A stretch of 64,000 nt of DNA from Naegleria gruberi (taxonomy: Eukaryota): assembly GCA_000004985.1 (NCBI GenBank), contig GG738872.1. One strand, 5' to 3'. The notes below the pieces were generated by a model. The model searched no databases. It worked only from the letters and a program-made list of their open reading frames with translations, and was not told the origin of the DNA. Of this stretch, positions 27,288 through 35,592 are shown one piece after another. The first letter of the stretch is position 1. The number at the start of each line of letters is the position of its first letter. Both the position numbers and the translations under genes were made by a program.

Positions 27288-28541
27288 ATGTCTCAATCAT
27301 TAGAATCATTGTCGCCGTCTTGTTTATCGGAGCATCAAAATACAACACCTATTGTTGGTGATAAAAATAGTAGTAGTAGAAAATTAACTCTGGAGGAAAT
27401 GATTGCTCAACAAGATTTTGAAATTGATAATAATATAAAGAATAATTCGGTTGATTACAAATTCTTCTTTGAAGAGGATGAAAAGGATAAGGTTGTAGGA
27501 AAGAATGAAGAGAAGGAGCAAGGACTCTTTGAAAATATGGAGTCTGATGATGAGGATGATGAAGATTATTTTGAATCTGAAGAGGAGAGAAAGTACTGGG
27601 AAAAACAAGCTAAAAAGATGAATCCTAATGGTGAATCATCTTCTAATAAGAGAGCACACGGTCATGCTACACTCTCTCGTAATAATTATGATGATTTGAA
27701 TTTGTATTCGGATGATATGGTCTTGTTAGCAAAGATTGAACAACGCAAATTCAATTGGTATTTAAAGAAAGGATTGGCTGAACAAATTAATGAGAATAGT
27801 ATTAAATTAATGTTCAGACCAAAAGGATACGGACATAAGGATGATGATTTTTATCTTTCCAAGATGGAAAATATTTGTGTTGCTTGTGGAGTTGATAAGG
27901 AGTTGACAAGACATCATATTATCTCATTTGAATATAGAAAACACATGCCAGAGTTTGTGAGATCTCACTCGTCACACGATGTTTGTCTTTTGTGTGCTCA
28001 TTGCCATGAGAAATATGAAACTGAAGCTTTTAAATTGAGAAAACAAATATCGGAAAAGTATGGATCGCCTCTTGGAGGAGTTGGAATGGTAAAGAATGTA
28101 GATTTTGCAAGTGCTAAGAAGGCAGCAAATGCTATTTTGAAATCCAAGGACAAAATGCCAGCCAATCGAGTGGAAGAGTTGGAATATGAACTCAGAATTT
28201 TCATCAAATCATGTGGAAAGTACTCTGATCCAACAGATGATGAGGATGATGATGAAAATGATCCAATACCTCAGGAAATTCTTGAAGATATTGCTTCACT
28301 TCAAGTTACTGACACTACATTATTCCAATCACACGGAGAAGGAGTTATCAAGGCAATGAAGGAGTCGTGTAAAAACGACGATGAATATCTGGACAAATTG
28401 GATGAATTCTGTATCATGTGGAGACAAAACTTTATTGATGTTTTGGCACCAACTCATATGAGTCCTCACTGGAAGGTAGATAAAAAGATTAGACGCTCAA
28501 TCAATGATGACCCAAACAGAATTCAACTAATTACTGAATAG
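27288..28541 (+). CDS. Acidic protein with an HNH-type (beta-beta-alpha-metal) nuclease-like zinc motif, 417 aa
   Basis: The central motif CVACGVDKELTRHHIISFEYRKHMPEFVRSHSSHDVCLLCAHCHEKYE has the pattern CxxC...HH...HD...CxxCH of HNH endonuclease cores. It is flanked by D/E-rich low-complexity segments. No confident orthology assignment. Confidence 0.55.
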   Translation: MSQSLESLSPSCLSEHQNTTPIVGDKNSSSRKLTLEEMIAQQDFEIDNNIKNNSVDYKFFFEEDEKDKVVGKNEEKEQGLFENMESDDEDDEDYFESEEERKYWEKQAKKMNPNGESSSNKRAHGHATLSRNNYDDLNLYSDDMVLLAKIEQRKFNWYLKKGLAEQINENSIKLMFRPKGYGHKDDDFYLSKMENICVACGVDKELTRHHIISFEYRKHMPEFVRSHSSHDVCLLCAHCHEKYETEAFKLRKQISEKYGSPLGGVGMVKNVDFASAKKAANAILKSKDKMPANRVEELEYELRIFIKSCGKYSDPTDDEDDDENDPIPQEILEDIASLQVTDTTLFQSHGEGVIKAMKESCKNDDEYLDKLDEFCIMWRQNFIDVLAPTHMSPHWKVDKKIRRSINDDPNRIQLITE

Positions 28542-28615: not shown

Positions 28616-31600
28616 TTACTTGCTATCTTCCATCATTGCTCTTGCAGCTTCACTTGACAATGTTGTGGAAGAAGAAGGGGCATCATACTTTACAAGGAAA
28701 TCATCGAGTGGAATGGAGCGTTGTCTAAGACTTTCAAATAATTCCTTATTTTGTTTAACGTTACTCTCACCACTATCGATGGCATTCATGTAGAAAGCAT
28801 GAGTTCCTGAGCATTTGGATGGTTCAATTGAGAGAATGGTTGAACCACATACTTTTCCATCAATGATAGAATAACTTCCAGGAACTGTTTGTTTAACTTC
28901 CTCAATACTATCCAAGAATGTTACCATAACTCTAATTCCACTATCTCTGTAATATTTCAATCCATAGATAATATCATTCTTTGATAGATTATTTTCCTCA
29001 ATCCATGCTCCAGAAATAATTTGTTGTGAAGTTACATTATCTTGGCTTTGATCGAATATTTCCTTGTGGAATACGAAAATACATTCCAGTGTAATATTTG
29101 GATTTCTCTTATTGACTCTCTTATTCATGTCTGCAACTTCAAGAACACTTTCTTGTGTAAAATATGGTGATTGAACACTATTGGCAACAGTCCATGAGTG
29201 AATTGGAATAATCATGTGATGACTCTTTTCAACATATTCTTGAATATCGTGTAATCTTAATCTCATACTATCATAAAAGTTGGCATGGACAACAATTTCA
29301 CCTTTAGAAAAGAAGGTTGTAATTTGGTTTTCATAGTGCATACTGATAGAGTGGAACTTTTGTAAAAGAAGACATTTACCACAATGACGAGCATGCTTGT
29401 CTTTTGGAGTGTTGATCATTTCGAGGAACTTTTTCTTGAATCCTTGTAAGAGTGGATCCAAACAAATTTGCAAAGTTTCAATATTTTCATGAATATCAAA
29501 TGAAAGGAGAGGATCAGTGAGACTCATATTCTTATCCTGATACAAGGTATTAGAAGGAGGAATGGTTTCACTCACAGTGTGATCAGTATTACAAAGAGGA
29601 TGACATTGTTTGGCTTCTGTACAGGTTGCAGCAGGAAGAGTTGATGGAGTCACATTGCCAAAATCGACACCTTCTGGGAATTTCTCTTTAATGTAGTCTT
29701 CAAATGGTGTAGAATGATTATAAACATAGACCCATTTGGAGTAGTACAAGTCAGCAACACTCTTTCTATTGAAAATAATGACAGATTTTGGATAATCATC
29801 TTCAAAGGAAAGGTAATGGCCAAGTCTAGAGTCTAGAATGGAAAAGTTGTGTGGAATTTCTTTTCTATCATCCAGATCCTTGTGATGAACAACTCTTACC
29901 TCAATTCCACATGAATGATGGTAATGCATAAGCTTGTAATATTCCTTTTCTTCAGATTCAGTCATATTTGGAATTCCAACAACGAAAATTCTTTTCACGA
30001 CAGCTCCTGGATTAATGTCCAATAGTTTTTTGTTTGCATCGGCAAGATGATATGGATTATGTAAAATCCATTCACCAGTCCATCTGTAGAGAGCAAGATA
30101 ACTATGACGAACAGTCTTGATAATTTCAGTCAAGTTCAATTTGTGATTGGTGTAAACATCTGAACGAAGTTCTATCTTTTCTTCATTAATCAATTTTTCA
30201 AATGTCTGCAGGTAGTAATTGGAAATTTGGAAGAATTTAACTTTCAATAGAGCCATCAACTATATTAGGGTTAATTGGACAAATTGTTACTAAACAAAAA
30301 CTTACAGATTCATGTTTGTGCATATCACCTAAATTCATGTTTTGGATATAATCCTCATAGAGTGAGAGGAGTGATACAATTCTTTCCAATTCAGAATTGT
30401 AACTGTGCTTTTCGTAGGACTTTGGAATAAATAAAAAGTTTCCTCCTCCAAGCTCAACTTCTCCAAATCTTGGAACTTGGACGCCACCTGTTTCCTTGTG
30501 AACTCTTGTTTGAAGTTGTTTTCCTAAATCACTAGCAGTGTAGAATGGAGTGAGAGTTAAATGACCTTTCACACTGGATCCCCATTTGAGAGTTGTTAAA
30601 AGATTTACCAACTCCTTACTAAAGACACCTGGTTTCATTCCATTACTCTTTTGAGAGGAGCAAATAATTTGGACGGCCTTGTTGGAGGAATAGTACTTCA
30701 TATCCTTGGATGGATGGCTATCATTGACTACTTTCATGAGTATACCATTATAGAAAGTGTCAAAAATAAAGAGGGTATGTTTGGCAGCCAATCTATGATG
30801 GAAATTGACAAAGGATTGGTGGGAAATGGCTGTATTAACAAGGTTATCTGGATCAGTATCATATAAGGCCAAATAATTTTCAGTGTAGCCGTTATTGTAT
30901 TGCTTGGAAAGAGAAACACCAGTAAAGAAAATGAGTATGGCATCATCGTTTTGCAAACTATCACTCTCTGCAAGGGAAACAAACAGCTGGTTGACTTTGC
31001 TCCATGTAGCTTCCTCATTTAACAATAATCTAACTTCAAAACCATAAATCTTTGAAAGAATGTTGGAAATATTCATGGCATCGTGAACAGATGAGGCTGA
31101 AGATTGATGCAAAAGTCCATTATGGTGATACTTATCGATGGCAATAACAATGGCCCATTCTCTTCTGTAAGGTGTTGATGATTCCTTTCTCTTCTTCTTC
31201 TTGTCCTTGGAAAGGGAGATGGCTGTTGGATTGAAAGTACTGCTAATACCGTTTGAGGAATTAGAAGAAGTGAGAGAGACAGGTCCACACTCACCATCAC
31301 AACAATCAACAAACTTTCTCTTCTTGGTAGATTCTCCAACCATAATATTTGAACTGCTATCATCCAAAAACTCAAACTTCAAGTCTTGTGGATTAGATAC
31401 TGAAAAGTTACTTGTTCTAATTTCAATTGGCACTTCTCCTTTGAAGTCAATTTGTGGAGCCATTACAAAAATGGCATTTTGGTTAATTTGTTTAATTTCC
31501 ACTTCCTTCTCGCCAAGGAAAACCTTAACTTCCTGTAGGTCGGTAATCAATCTACTATCAAAATTGCATTGAATAAATATGAGATATCCACCAGCATTAG

Positions 31601-33428
31601 AGCCAGATTTTGGAGAAACTATAAAACTACCATTGGAAGCAACTGCAACAGTTTGAGGTTTTTCAGTCGAGGAAGAAGAACCCAAAGAGGCGGTTGATGA
31701 TGACCTAGTTAATTTTTCTTTTGGTGTTTGACTTTGTACAACGATAGATGATACATTATTTGGTACAGGAGAGGAAGGAGGAGAGTTTTCTCCATTATTA
31801 GACAATTCGTCCATATCTTCCTCATCTTTGCCAATATCTTCGCCTCCTTTGGATTTTCTCTTACTCTTAGTATTCTTACCACAATTAATGGCAAATAATT
31901 TAGTGGAATCTACATAGTAAGTCAACCAATTGTCGTAACAAAGTTTGTAACGAAGTTGACAATTCTTCTTATTATTTGATACAATACCAGCCTTAATTGG
32001 TGCATATTGAATGATGGTGGTAGCTGGGTTTTCTGGATTAGAAAAGACAGAAAAGCCTTCTCTACTATTTTCAGACTTTTTCTTCTTTGGTTTGTCTCTG
32101 GTCAAGCCCTTATCTTGTTCTTGACTGCTCATAAGAAGTGTCACATCAGCCCTCCACAAATCATCACTGAATGCAATTTCATTTCTTTGAACCTTTGTCT
32201 TGAGATCCTCCAAATTGATTGTCAAGTTGAGTTTTTCACTAACTTGACAGAAGGCTTCACCTTCCTTTTCCAGGATTGAGTTTCGTTGCCTTATCATGTT
32301 GATGATTGTACTCACCAACATTCTGAACCTATCCAAGGAAACTTCAATTGACACTGTTAAAGGAGTCTTTTTCCTATTAGAAACTGATTTACCACCAATT
32401 ACAGTTTCAGGAATTGTATCGTCCATTATTTTCAAAACTGGAATTAATTGCATGAGACAATTCGACCAAATTTGAACATTTGTAATACCACCATTCACAA
32501 TCACCTGTTGCACAGCATGGATACCCTTGTCCAATGTTGGAAAGAATTGAGTGGTTGGAGGGGAAGCACTAGACCTCGAATTTGAGTCCCTGGTTGATGT
32601 TTGTAATTGATTACTTGATGATGAGGATGAAATAGGAGTGCTGTTGGAGGTAGGGGCTGAGTTTGCATTGTATCCACCTGGCAAACCAGTCATGGTTGAA
32701 ATCATGGCTCCAAAATTACTCAAAGCACTGCTACTATTAGCTGCTGATGATTGTTTCGATGATTGTTGTGGCAAACTGGCCATTCCCATATTATTATTAT
32801 TATTGGAATTTTGTTTGTAAGCATTTTGTGGTTGTTGTTGCTGAGCTGTTGTTGCTTGCACAACACCATTCATAGCAGTTGGTACCTGTTGCCTACTGGT
32901 AGAAACAAGTTGTGGTTGTTGTTGCTGTTGTTGCTGTTGGGTCATACTTGTTAAATAGCTTTGTAACAACTTGTTATGTTGGAGAACTGTATTGTGAGCA
33001 TTGTGAAGGAATTGATTATTGTTGGTGGCAAAGATTTGTTGAGGATTTGTACTTGATGATCCATTCGAATAGAGAGATGATGTATCAAAGTACATTTGAT
33101 TGTCATTCTTTGATTGTTGGTCATCCATATCTTCATCATTGAGGAATTCCTCAACTCCTAGATCAAATTGACTTTCAATTGATTGCAATGCATTCAAGGC
33201 TTGATTGTATTGGTTTAATTCTTCAGTACTATTCATGCTACTCTGAGTACCTGGCATGGCAAATAAATTACCCCTCTGCAATGATTGTCTCTGTAGCTGA
33301 TTCAACAATTGTTGTTGGTGATGATTGGCTGCTGATTGTGAGGTTGATGCAGATGAGACATTGTTCTGCTGCTGCTGATTGCTGTTACCCGAAGTGGTAA
33401 CTTTTAAAGTAGAAGCATCAAAAAACAT
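28616..33428 (-). CDS. Very large (about 1590 aa) Q/N/S-rich protein containing a degenerate caspase-like (peptidase C14-like) domain, two exons (33428-30307, 30260-28616)
   Basis: ORFs 30237-33428 and 28616-30259 are on the same strand. They join through a 46-nt GTAAGT...ATATAG intron (30261-30306), phase 0. The caspase-like segment is WAIVIAIDKYHHNGL...SSVHDAMNISNILSKIYGFEVRLLLNEEAT...NDDAILIFFTGVSL...YLALYDTD. It has the fold signature, but the catalytic His (FFTGVS instead of SHG) and Cys (DTFYNG instead of DxCHSG) are replaced. The N-terminal 300 aa are poly-Q/N, and the C-terminal 550 aa are unassigned. Confidence 0.6.
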
Positions 33429-34201: not shown

Positions 34202-35592
34202 TTAGAAGGAAAAACTCAAATAACTCAAACTTCCAAGATCATAGAATCTCTCAATAACCTTAGAGGTCTTCTCTTCGTGTGTCATACCCATTGCTACAAA
34301 CAAAGGTACATAGTGTTCACTTCTTGGAACAGCAGCTCTTGCATTTGGTGCAAACCTTTCGTATGCAAATAATTCTTCTGTGTTCCACTTGGAAATTCTG
34401 TCAACTAACCAATCATCAAACTCTACTGCCCATGCATCTGGAGTCTTCTTTCCCCAATTAACTCTTCCAAGATTATGAACTGTACTGCCACTTCCAATCA
34501 CTAAAACTTGTTCATTGGCAAGAGGAGCTAATGCCTTTCCAATATTGTAATGAGTTTCTATTGAGCTTCTTGGATCGACTGAGCATTGAACTACAGGAAT
34601 TTTTGCACCAGGGAAGAGAGTTTGCAAAACAACCCATGTACCATGATCGAGGCCTCTTTTATATTCTCTTCTTGATTTGATATTATTCTGATTGAGTAAT
34701 TGTTCTATTCTTTGAGCAACTTGTGGAGCACCTAATTAATCAATTCATACATTTTCGTATTGGTACAGTTCACAAATGTCAATCAATACAATTCAGTCAA
34801 CTTACCTTTAGCTGGATACTTGATAGTATACATCTCATCAGGGAATCCATAAAAATCATAAATTGTATCATAAACAGTATTAGCATCATGGAAAGTAATA
34901 GCAACTCCATTATTTGCAATTGAATCTTCCCAATGAGCAGTAAACACAACCACTGCCTTCGGAGCATCTTGTCCTTTATATTGCTTGGAAAGCTTGTTTC
35001 CCAAAAACTTATTCATGGCATGATCCAATTCAATGGCCAAAGTAGGAGCTCCATGAGCAATAAACAATGGTGCAATTCTATTCATTTTTTTCTCTTGAGT
35101 TGTTTTAATTTTTCCATTCTTGGATGATGGTTTTATAGTGCTGGCTACATCTGCTTCCTTCTCTGTCTGTACTACCTCTTTATCCTTAGTATTCTTCGGG
35201 TTGAGAGATTTGGAGAGTTTGGTTGGGTGATCAGATGCGTGCGTATTTTTTTCGAGTCCTTCAGTGGCGGGTTTCTTGAGGTCTTGTTTAGAGTTTTCCT
35301 TAATTGGAGGAGATGCTTCCTGAGGAATGCTGTGATGATTGTCATCATCATTAATAATATTTGAAGATGATGAAGATGAAGAACGAGTAAAGATTACAAG
35401 TAGAAGAGCACAACAAAAGCCGAATATTAACAAGCTCATGATAATTTTCAAAGATGAACCAGTGGATTGATTTTTGGAGATTTTATCTTCGGGAATGGGT
35501 TGCTCTTGATGAATAGGTTGTTGATAGTGATATTCCTTTGTTGCTGCTATCCTTCTCAAATGAATATCGTTGTTGCTGATGGACATTATCAA
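34202..35592 (-). CDS. LigB-family extradiol ring-cleavage dioxygenase (DOPA 4,5-dioxygenase / YgiD-like) with an N-terminal membrane anchor, two exons (35592-34806, 34731-34202)
   Basis: 74-nt intron (GTAAGT...ATTAG, 34732-34805), phase 1. The catalytic domain carries APLFIAHGAPTLAIELD, VVVFTAHWE, DHGTWVVL and VIGSGSTVHNL, which are conserved in class III extradiol dioxygenases. The N-terminal 150 aa add a TM helix (MSLLIFGFCCALLLVIF) and a Ser/Lys-rich linker. Confidence 0.8.

What the first reader, a model, noticed from the sequence alone, without database searches (positions are those of the whole stretch)
30848..31210. Catalytically dead caspase-like domain inside a 1590-aa poly-Q/N protein
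The segment WAIVIAIDKYHH...HDAMNISNILSKIYGFEVRLLLNEEAT...DDAILIFFTGVS...YLALYDTD follows the caspase/metacaspase p20 topology, but His to Val/Ser and Cys to Tyr/Asn replace the dyad. Pseudo-caspase modules are known as scaffolds in Raptor, separase and CHAT proteins. Here it is combined with a long glutamine-rich N-terminus typical of transcriptional co-regulators and an unassigned 550-aa C-terminal region. I do not recognise this arrangement.
Basis: partly seen in the sequence, partly recalled or inferred. Interest (0 to 1): 0.55.

Follow-up and report, generated by a model that had tools for sequence, protein, structure and literature searches.

The report
Dead caspase domain in Naegleria protein
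A large uncharacterised Naegleria gruberi protein carries a true caspase-family protease domain that lost both catalytic residues, although more distant relatives keep them, and it sits next to a second disabled enzyme module (phospholipase-D fold), so it is a natural example of enzymes turned into non-catalytic parts.

Summary
Window 28616-33428 (minus strand, one 46-nt intron) encodes the 1588-aa Naegleria gruberi 'predicted protein' XP_002676443.1.

- **Dyad:** The catalytic His is Val838. The catalytic Cys is Phe892, not Tyr/Asn, and it lies outside the reported coordinates.
- **Ancestry:** The dyad is not ancestrally absent. Two deeper-branching full-length orthologues keep His and Cys, and the one scanned passes Pfam PF00656 (E 8e-19). 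Both residues were therefore lost before the Naegleria-Willaertia split. The dead domain stays 78-87% conserved and keeps both S1-pocket aspartates.
- **Other domains:** The 'unassigned' C-terminus is a tandem pair of PLD-fold (DUF6879-type) domains without HKD motifs, a second pseudoenzyme. Upstream lie an orphan 230-aa domain and an IPT/TIG domain.
- **Distribution:** The architecture was found only in this heterolobosean-type family.

Best reading: a soluble, possibly nuclear regulatory scaffold whose C14 domain survives as a non-catalytic binding module. It is a new variant of a known kind (pseudo-caspase), of moderate interest.

The parts
28616..33428 (-). Whole coding region (stop included) of the 1588-aa protein: exon 1 at 30306-33428 and exon 2 at 28616-30259.
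   Evidence: ORFs and the splice junction. The spliced product is identical to XP_002676443.1 / D2VHL3_NAEGR. It is collinear with the N. fowleri, N. lovaniensis and Willaertia orthologues and with the intronless P0006 and P0014.
30260..30305 (-). 46-nt intron (GTAAGT...ATATAG, phase 0).
   Evidence: Read-through would hit a stop after 22 codons. The orthologues read ...HES|LM... continuously.
32544..33428 (-). Residues 1-295: a low-complexity region rich in Ser, Gln and Asn (S 17%, Q 17%, N 13%), poorly conserved.
   Evidence: Composition and 35% identity to N. fowleri, 9% to P0006.
31854..32543 (-). Residues 296-525: orphan conserved domain 'X', an alpha/beta part followed by a beta-rich part. 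It contains a KKKK run at residues 448-451.
31359..31628 (-). Residues 601-690: IPT/TIG domain.
31185..31202 (-). KKKKRK basic cluster (residues 743-748) just before the C14 domain. A second cluster, KKRK, is at residues 702-705.
   Evidence: Reading these as an NLS or a cleavage site is inference only.
30414..31172 (-). Residues 753-1005: Peptidase_C14 (caspase-fold) pseudoprotease domain.
30915..30917 (-). Codon of Val838, at the position of the catalytic His.
   Evidence: Alignments. It is V in N. gruberi, N. fowleri, N. lovaniensis and Willaertia, and also in P0004/P0005. It is H in P0006, P0014 and all six bacterial-type homologues.
30753..30755 (-). Codon of Phe892, at the position of the catalytic Cys. 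It lies outside the finding's coordinates.
   Evidence: It is F in all Naegleria and Willaertia sequences and C in P0006 and P0014.
30113..30413 (-). Residues 1006-1090: conserved helical linker. This span includes the intron.
   Evidence: 87% identity to N. fowleri. Helices are seen in both models.
29687..30112 (-). Residues 1091-1232: PLD-fold domain 1 (DUF6879-type) with no HxK motif (PHNFSILD).
29228..29527 (-). Residues 1286-1385: very highly conserved helical segment between the two PLD-fold domains.
   Evidence: 98% identity to N. fowleri and 92% to Willaertia. Helices are seen in the model.
28703..29227 (-). Residues 1386-1560: PLD-fold domain 2, a diverged duplicate of domain 1 with no HxK motif (PGSYSIID).
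   Evidence: hhalign of copy 1 against copy 2 gives 98.5%, E 1.6e-15. Two-lobed PLD enzymes (F13, PLD, PssA) align over 513-545 columns.

Best explanation
The region is the catalytic-type domain of a clan-CD, family-C14 peptidase (caspase/metacaspase/orthocaspase fold). In the Naegleria-Willaertia lineage it has become a pseudoprotease, with catalytic His changed to Val838 and catalytic Cys changed to Phe892. It lies in a soluble 1588-aa protein found only in this heterolobosean-type family. The domain order is a Q/N/S-rich region, orphan domain X, IPT/TIG, C14, a helical linker, and two PLD-fold (DUF6879-type) domains that also lack catalytic HKD motifs. Shown here: the homology, the fold, the loss of the dyad, retention of the dyad in two deeper-branching orthologues (so the loss is secondary), strong conservation of the dead domain, and retention of the two acidic S1-pocket residues. 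Inferred: the dead domain still works as a non-catalytic module that binds basic (Arg/Lys-containing) peptide segments and/or dimerises, as c-FLIP, pseudo-orthocaspases and TbMCA4 are thought to do. Also inferred: the tandem pseudo-PLD unit is a ligand- or partner-binding sensor, as in TrmB, FAM83 and MITD1. Also inferred, with less support: the whole protein is a nuclear regulatory scaffold, given the IPT/TIG domain, the NLS-like KKRK/KKKKRK clusters and the Q-rich region.
For: Homology. The domain of orthologue P0006 is 46-48% identical to the window's and hits Pfam PF00656 at E 8.1e-19, 68.7 bits, covering 223 of 233 model positions. The family profile retrieves only PF00656 proteins, at E 2e-25 to 5e-8. 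The dead-only profile matches those proteins at hhalign 99.7%, E 6.9e-27. The window domain alone hits NCBIfam NF047832 at E 1.8e-8 and PADLOC 'caspase' at E 7e-5. The wider profile hits PDB metacaspases Yca1 and AtMC4 at E 3-5e-11 and MALT1 at 1e-4.

Dyad. Positions 838 and 892 are V and F in all Naegleria and Willaertia sequences, and H and C in P0006 and P0014.

Selection. The C14 domain is 87% identical to N. fowleri and 78% to Willaertia, while the linkers are 26-55%.

Pocket. D783 and D890 align with the metacaspase C-x-N-D and D-x-C aspartates. These are TbMC2 Asp95 and Asp211, which are also conserved in bacterial pseudo-orthocaspases (PMC6426788).

Other points. No transmembrane segment was found. 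The architecture is confined to the family.
Against: There are no experimental data of any kind. The window sequence itself does not reach any Pfam C14 threshold, so family assignment rests on profile-profile, transitive and structural evidence. Pocket conservation is read from alignments, not from coordinates. The C-terminal model has low confidence (mean pLDDT 52.7). The nuclear or transcriptional role rests only on motifs and on analogy with IPT/TIG transcription factors. Domain X shows no similarity to any DNA-binding domain, and Q/N-rich tracts are common in protist proteins in general. The source organisms of P0006 and P0014 are unidentified. Their orthology is inferred from full-length collinearity and from the absence of other family members.
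Confidence: 0.65

Rival explanations
1. The protein is a cytoplasmic signalling or cell-death scaffold rather than a nuclear regulator. The dead C14 domain would heterodimerise with, and regulate, an active Naegleria metacaspase, in the way c-FLIP regulates caspase-8.
Against: The nearest sequence relatives are bacterial-type caspase proteins, not Naegleria metacaspases. No partner is known. The live orthologues keep the same architecture, which suggests the module acts in cis.
Confidence: 0.2
2. The domain is a decaying relic with no remaining function. It would persist only because it lies inside a protein whose other domains are under selection.
For: Both catalytic residues are gone. Relative to domain X, the C14 domain is slightly less conserved in the dead clade (78% against 83%, N. 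gruberi versus Willaertia) than in the live pair (59% against 48%, P0006 versus P0014).
Against: It is 87% and 78% identical across Naegleria and Willaertia, the same as the best-conserved domains and far above the linkers at 26-55%. There are no indels or stops. The pocket aspartates and the core motifs are invariant.
Confidence: 0.05
3. The domain is still an active peptidase that uses non-canonical catalytic residues.
For: A His (H884, in the 'AKH' motif) is invariant in the family and in all six bacterial-type homologues. A family-specific Cys (C923) is conserved.
Against: H884 is equally conserved in homologues that have a normal dyad, so it is not a replacement. C923 is Thr in the bacterial-type relatives. 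Val and Phe occupy both catalytic positions. No clan-CD enzyme is known to work without the His-Cys dyad (established knowledge; PMC4357240 and PMC6426788 describe the dyad as essential).
Confidence: 0.04
4. The resemblance is due to chance or composition, or the 1588-aa protein is a gene-model fusion artefact.
For: Pfam gives no C14 hit on the window sequence. The two halves are separate ORFs in the raw DNA.
Confidence: 0.01

Closest known systems
Bacterial orthocaspase-type C14 proteins (the PF00656 proteins P0007-P0012; NCBIfam NF047832 'caspase, EACC1-associated type'; PDB 3bij GSU0716)
   Different: They are small secreted or TPR-fused proteins, most with an intact His-Cys dyad. The window protein scores 34 bits against a 140-bit cut-off for NF047832, so it is not a member of that subfamily. 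It is also embedded in a eukaryotic multidomain protein.
Pseudo-orthocaspases and the pseudo-metacaspase TbMC4 (dyad replaced by Tyr/Ser) (PMC6426788)
   Same: They are C14 domains with both catalytic residues substituted, while the fold and the two acidic S1-pocket aspartates are retained.
   Different: The substitutions differ (Val/Phe here, against Tyr/Ser or Tyr/Asn). The lineage differs (Heterolobosea). The context differs (TIG plus PLD-fold fusion). Here, live and dead versions are orthologues with an otherwise identical architecture.
c-FLIP(L), the human pseudo-caspase (PDB 3h13; PMC7586951)
   Different: c-FLIP is an animal caspase-8 paralogue with DED domains and acts by heterodimerising with an active paralogue. 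No such partner or DED domain is present here.
MALT1 paracaspase, metacaspases (AtMC4/9, Yca1, TbMCA2) and caspase-9
   Different: All are active enzymes with the His-Cys dyad. Metacaspase-specific p10 or prodomain features were not identified here.
Raptor N-terminal domain, separase and CHAT
   Different: Their scores are clearly lower than for C14 proteins. No Pfam Raptor_N or CHAT hit appears even at E up to 10. This is fold-level kinship only.
Non-catalytic PLD-fold domains: the TrmB sugar-binding domain, FAM83 DUF1669 and the MITD1 C-terminal domain; Pfam DUF6879
   Different: There is no sequence similarity to TrmB, FAM83 or MITD1. Here two copies are fused in tandem, as in two-lobed PLD enzymes, and the ligand or partner is unknown.
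IPT/TIG transcription factors (EBF/COE, NFAT/Rel, CAMTA; Spt23/Mga2)
   Different: The domain upstream of the TIG domain (X) matches none of their DNA-binding domains. DNA binding has not been shown.

Membership tests
Peptidase_C14 (Pfam PF00656; MEROPS clan CD) | Caspase-hemoglobinase alpha/beta fold. | tested here: met
Peptidase_C14 (Pfam PF00656; MEROPS clan CD) | Significant sequence-profile similarity to family members. | tested here: met
   hhalign of the dead-only profile against PF00656 proteins gives 99.7%, E 6.9e-27. NCBIfam caspase model E 1.8e-8 and PADLOC caspase E 7e-5 on the window sequence alone. The 46-48% identical orthologue domain hits PF00656 at E 8.1e-19.
Peptidase_C14 (Pfam PF00656; MEROPS clan CD) | The window sequence itself reaches the Pfam PF00656 gathering score. 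| tested here: not met
   No PF00656 hit at E up to 1 on the whole ORF or up to 10 on the excised domain. The Willaertia domain, scanned excised, also gives none, and the full-length N. fowleri and Willaertia proteins give none at E up to 0.1.
Peptidase_C14 (Pfam PF00656; MEROPS clan CD) | Catalytic His-Cys dyad. | tested here: not met
   Val838 and Phe892 occupy the dyad columns. P0006, P0014 and most bacterial-type homologues have H and C there.
Peptidase_C14 (Pfam PF00656; MEROPS clan CD) | Acidic S1 pocket of the metacaspase/orthocaspase branch (TbMC2 Asp95 and Asp211). | tested here: met
   D783 and D890 are invariant in the family and align with the metacaspase C-x-N-D and D-x-C aspartates (residue roles from PMC6426788). 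This is alignment-level evidence only.
Peptidase_C14 (Pfam PF00656; MEROPS clan CD) | Peptidase activity or autoprocessing. | not testable with these tools
   This needs recombinant protein and Arg/Lys and Asp substrates.
NCBIfam NF047832 (caspase, EACC1-associated type) | Curated whole-protein cut-off of 140 bits. | tested here: not met
   34.1 bits for the window domain and 56.6 bits for P0006. It is a homologue, not a member.
CHAT (PF12770) and Raptor N-terminal caspase-like domain (PF14538) | Profile match to the family model. | tested here: not met
Phospholipase D superfamily | PLD/Nuc alpha-beta fold, in two lobes. | tested here: met
Phospholipase D superfamily | HxK(x)4D catalytic motif in each lobe. 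| tested here: not met
   Copy 1 reads PHNFSILD, with the His becoming N in Willaertia and R in P0014 and the Lys position occupied by F or L. Copy 2 reads PGSYSIID.
Pfam DUF6879 (PF21806) | Gathering score of 23.9 bits. | tested here: met
   25.0 bits, E 1.4e-5, for copy 1 of the window protein. The N. fowleri and Willaertia copies fall just below at about 18 bits. Copy 2 is linked only through hhalign to copy 1.
IPT/TIG domain (PF01833) | Gathering score and Ig-like fold. | tested here: met
Rel/NFAT/EBF/CAMTA-type transcription factors | A recognised DNA-binding domain N-terminal to the IPT/TIG domain. | tested here: not met

The most novel reading that the evidence does not exclude
In the orthologues that keep the dyad (P0006 and P0014 types), the protein is a ligand-gated, self-cleaving latent regulator. 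The tandem pseudo-PLD unit would sense a ligand or membrane. The Arg/Lys-directed C14 protease would then cut the basic linker (KKRK/KKKKRK-like sites that flank the TIG domain and immediately precede the protease). This would release the Q-rich-X-TIG module to the nucleus. Naegleria and Willaertia would have rewired this switch to work without proteolysis, with the dead domain still clamping the basic linker as a pseudo-substrate or masked NLS. That would be a caspase-family route to transcription-factor activation that has not been described, caught in the act of becoming a pseudoenzyme.
Probability: 0.1. Interest if true: 0.7.

Novelty: new variant of a known kind. Interest (0 to 1): 0.4.

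Why it matters
Pseudo-proteases of the caspase fold are known (c-FLIP, Raptor, pseudo-orthocaspases, TbMCA4), so a dead C14 domain is not surprising in itself. Three things are unusual here.

- **A polarised loss.** Live and dead versions occur as full-length collinear orthologues, which gives a dated loss of both catalytic residues.
- **Two pseudoenzymes in one chain.** The same polypeptide carries a second pseudoenzyme, a tandem HKD-less PLD fold. It also carries an orphan domain and an IPT/TIG domain.
- **A restricted, unannotated architecture.** The arrangement was found nowhere else among billions of proteins searched. The Pfam model does not reach the N. gruberi sequence or the excised Willaertia domain, none of the orthologues carries a precomputed Pfam domain, and all are annotated only as 'predicted' or 'hypothetical' proteins. 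Pfam-based surveys of protist caspase homologues, such as PMC5982838, would therefore probably miss the family.

This offers a compact system for asking what a caspase domain does after it stops cutting. The family includes the pathogen N. fowleri (75% identical orthologue).

Tried and rejected
- **Pfam on the window protein and excised domain.** No C14, CHAT or Raptor hit. The homology only appeared through orthologue P0006.
- **HMMER behaviour on P0006.** PF00656 was not reported for full-length P0006 at E up to 0.1, yet it scored E 8e-19 on the excised domain. I attribute this to HMMER's filters on a low-complexity-rich protein, but did not resolve it.
- **PDB sequence search with the family-only profile (A2).** Only noise, E above 0.3. 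It worked only after adding the bacterial-type homologues.
- **Whole-protein homologue search.** It was swamped by low-complexity words and returned only orthologues.
- **C-terminal profile search.** Only one further Naegleria-like protein was found. The PDB sequence search gave noise.
- **Tool limits.** The AFDB50 fold library was unavailable.
- **Literature.** Nothing was found on the protein's accessions, on DUF6879, or on the two metagenome/SRA samples.
- **Rejected readings.** Chance resemblance, a gene-fusion artefact, an active non-canonical protease, a membrane or extracellular plexin-like protein (no signal peptide seen by eye; no TM segment, maximum Kyte-Doolittle 1.2), and membership of CHAT or Raptor_N.

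Full report
**What is at the coordinates.** The quoted peptide is the minus-strand translation of window 30848-31210. It lies in a 1063-aa ORF (33428-30237) that is followed, in another frame, by a 547-aa ORF (30259-28616). A canonical 46-nt intron (GTAAGT...ATATAG, 30305-30260, phase 0) joins them. The spliced product is 1588 aa. It is identical, residue for residue, to Naegleria gruberi XP_002676443.1 / UniProt D2VHL3 / NAEGRDRAFT_68366, which is annotated only as 'predicted protein'. The finding's coordinates correspond to residues 740-861. The neighbouring genes are ordinary eukaryotic housekeeping genes: Tfb2, PIG-N, a TOG-domain protein, a Spartan-like protease, a GH1 glycosidase and a LigB-type dioxygenase. 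There is no gene-cluster context.

**Is it a caspase-type domain?** Pfam alone says nothing. There was no Peptidase_C14, CHAT or Raptor hit on the ORF or on the excised domain, even at permissive thresholds. A PDB sequence search with the family-only profile gave only noise. Orthologues settle the question.

- The protein has full-length collinear orthologues in N. fowleri and N. lovaniensis (75% identity) and in Willaertia magna (65%). There are also two more distant, intronless genes on eukaryotic contigs: P0006 (JGI metagenome 3300062526) and P0014 (SRA run SRR28521187).
- The corresponding domain of P0006 is 46-48% identical to the window's over about 295 residues. It matches PF00656 at E 8.1e-19, 68.7 bits, covering 223 of 233 model positions.
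- A profile of the family retrieves only PF00656-bearing proteins from 5.8 billion sequences, at E 2e-25 to 5e-8.
- A profile built only from the four dyad-less sequences matches those proteins at hhalign probability 99.7%, E 6.9e-27 over 255 columns.
- The window's domain on its own hits NCBIfam NF047832 ('caspase, EACC1-associated type') at E 1.8e-8 and the PADLOC 'caspase' model at E 7e-5.
- With the bacterial-type homologues added, the profile reaches solved metacaspases (Yca1 3e-11, AtMC4 5e-11) and MALT1 (1e-4).

The domain spans residues 753-1005 (window 30414-31172).

**The dyad.** In every alignment the His column reads T-G-V-S in the window against A/S-G-H-S/G in homologues. The Cys column reads D-T-F-Y-N-G against D-A/T-C-Y-S-G. 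The substitutions are therefore His to Val838 and Cys to Phe892. All Naegleria and Willaertia sequences, including the partial P0004 and P0005, carry V and F. P0006 and P0014 carry H and C.

P0006 and P0014 group together (59% identity in this domain) and are about equally distant from Naegleria (43-46%). The bacterial-type outgroup has the dyad. Parsimony therefore places the loss of both residues on the stem leading to Naegleria plus Willaertia.

**Is the dead domain still under selection?** Its identity to N. fowleri is 87% and to Willaertia 78%. That is the same range as the other folded domains (X 88% and 83%; PLD-1 85% and 76%) and far above the linkers at 26-55%. Relative to domain X it is slightly less conserved in the dead clade than in the live pair (78% against 83%, compared with 59% against 48%). 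That is compatible with mild relaxation, but not with decay.

Asp783 and Asp890 are invariant. They align with the metacaspase C-x-N-D and D-x-C aspartates. These correspond to TbMC2 Asp95 and Asp211, which accommodate basic P1 residues and are also kept in bacterial pseudo-orthocaspases (PMC6426788). I infer, but have not shown, that the pocket can still hold an Arg- or Lys-containing segment.

**The rest of the protein.**

- **Residues 1-295** are rich in Ser, Gln and Asn and are poorly conserved.
- **Basic clusters** KKRK (702) and KKKKRK (743) flank the linker before the C14 domain.
- **No transmembrane segment** is present.
- **The 'unassigned' C-terminal 550 residues** contain two homologous domains (hhalign 98.5%, E 1.6e-15). 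The first passes Pfam DUF6879 (25.0 bits against 23.9).

**Mechanism.**

- **Shown:** a C14-fold domain without a nucleophile or general base, secondarily inactivated, under purifying selection, with the acidic pocket residues retained, fused to TIG and pseudo-PLD modules in a soluble protein.
- **Inferred, in decreasing confidence:**
  1. The domain acts non-catalytically as a peptide-binding and/or dimerisation module.
  2. The pseudo-PLD pair is a sensor or docking unit.
  3. The protein is a nuclear regulator.
- **Most novel reading not excluded:** the live orthologues are self-cleaving latent regulators that cut their own basic linker, and Naegleria has converted this into a cleavage-independent switch. 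I give this about 10%.

**Comparison and novelty.** The closest relatives by sequence are bacterial orthocaspase-type proteins. By function the nearest analogues are pseudo-orthocaspases, TbMC4 and c-FLIP. Raptor, separase and CHAT are related only at fold level. The protein fails the curated thresholds of Pfam PF00656 and NCBIfam NF047832. It lacks the dyad, so it is a homologue and pseudo-member of family C14, not an enzyme of it.

The architecture X-TIG-C14-PLD-PLD was found only in this family. No paper in the searchable library mentions the protein or DUF6879. I could not check whether InterPro structural signatures already flag it. I rate it a new variant of a known kind, with moderate interest (0.4).

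Noticed in passing
P0006 (L001:5001-9257): Pfam PF00656 was not reported for the full-length 1418-aa protein at E up to 0.1, yet it scores E 8e-19 on the excised 301-aa domain. The precomputed Pfam column for all orthologues is also empty. Automated annotation therefore probably misses the active members of this family too.
   Followed up: partly
window 33138-33224 (-), residues 69-97: A short motif, EELNQYNQALNALQSIESQFDLGVEEFLN, is well conserved in Naegleria and Willaertia inside the otherwise poorly conserved Q/N-rich N-terminus. It may be an interaction or activation motif.
   Followed up: no
window 29579-29623 (-), residues 1254-1268: A Cys/His pattern (C-x5-C-H-x2-C-x3-H; the C-H-x2-C-x3-H core recurs in N. 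fowleri, N. lovaniensis and Willaertia) sits in the variable linker between the PLD-fold domains. It is absent from P0006. It may be a small metal-binding knuckle.
   Followed up: no
window 29228-29527 (-), residues 1286-1385: The helical segment between the two PLD-fold domains is the most conserved part of the whole protein, at 98% identity to N. fowleri and 92% to Willaertia. It has no family assignment and was modelled with low confidence.
   Followed up: no
P0010 and P0011 (TPR-fused caspase-domain proteins): Two of the six nearest non-family homologues keep the His but lack the Cys (LDTPLRG and LNAAVRG). Pseudo-variants therefore arose independently among the closest relatives.
   Followed up: no
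window 27288-28541 (+): A 417-aa ORF lies immediately downstream, convergent with the gene. It has no Pfam hit but contains a Cys/His-rich stretch (CVACG...HHI...CLLCAHCH) that resembles an HNH or zinc-finger-like motif.
   Followed up: no
window 34202-35592 (-): A LigB-type extradiol dioxygenase lies upstream. It is split into two ORFs (34783-35592 and 34202-34627), presumably by an intron, and has a long S/K-rich N-terminal extension.
   Followed up: partly
L001 and L002 (contigs carrying P0006 and P0014): Both dyad-bearing orthologues are single intronless ORFs on contigs of 37-39% GC. Their neighbours are eukaryotic genes (Rad4/XPC BHD, AATF/TRAUB, EF-hand, tectonin, cystatin). The source organisms are unidentified, and the neighbouring genes differ from those in the N. 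gruberi window.
   Followed up: partly
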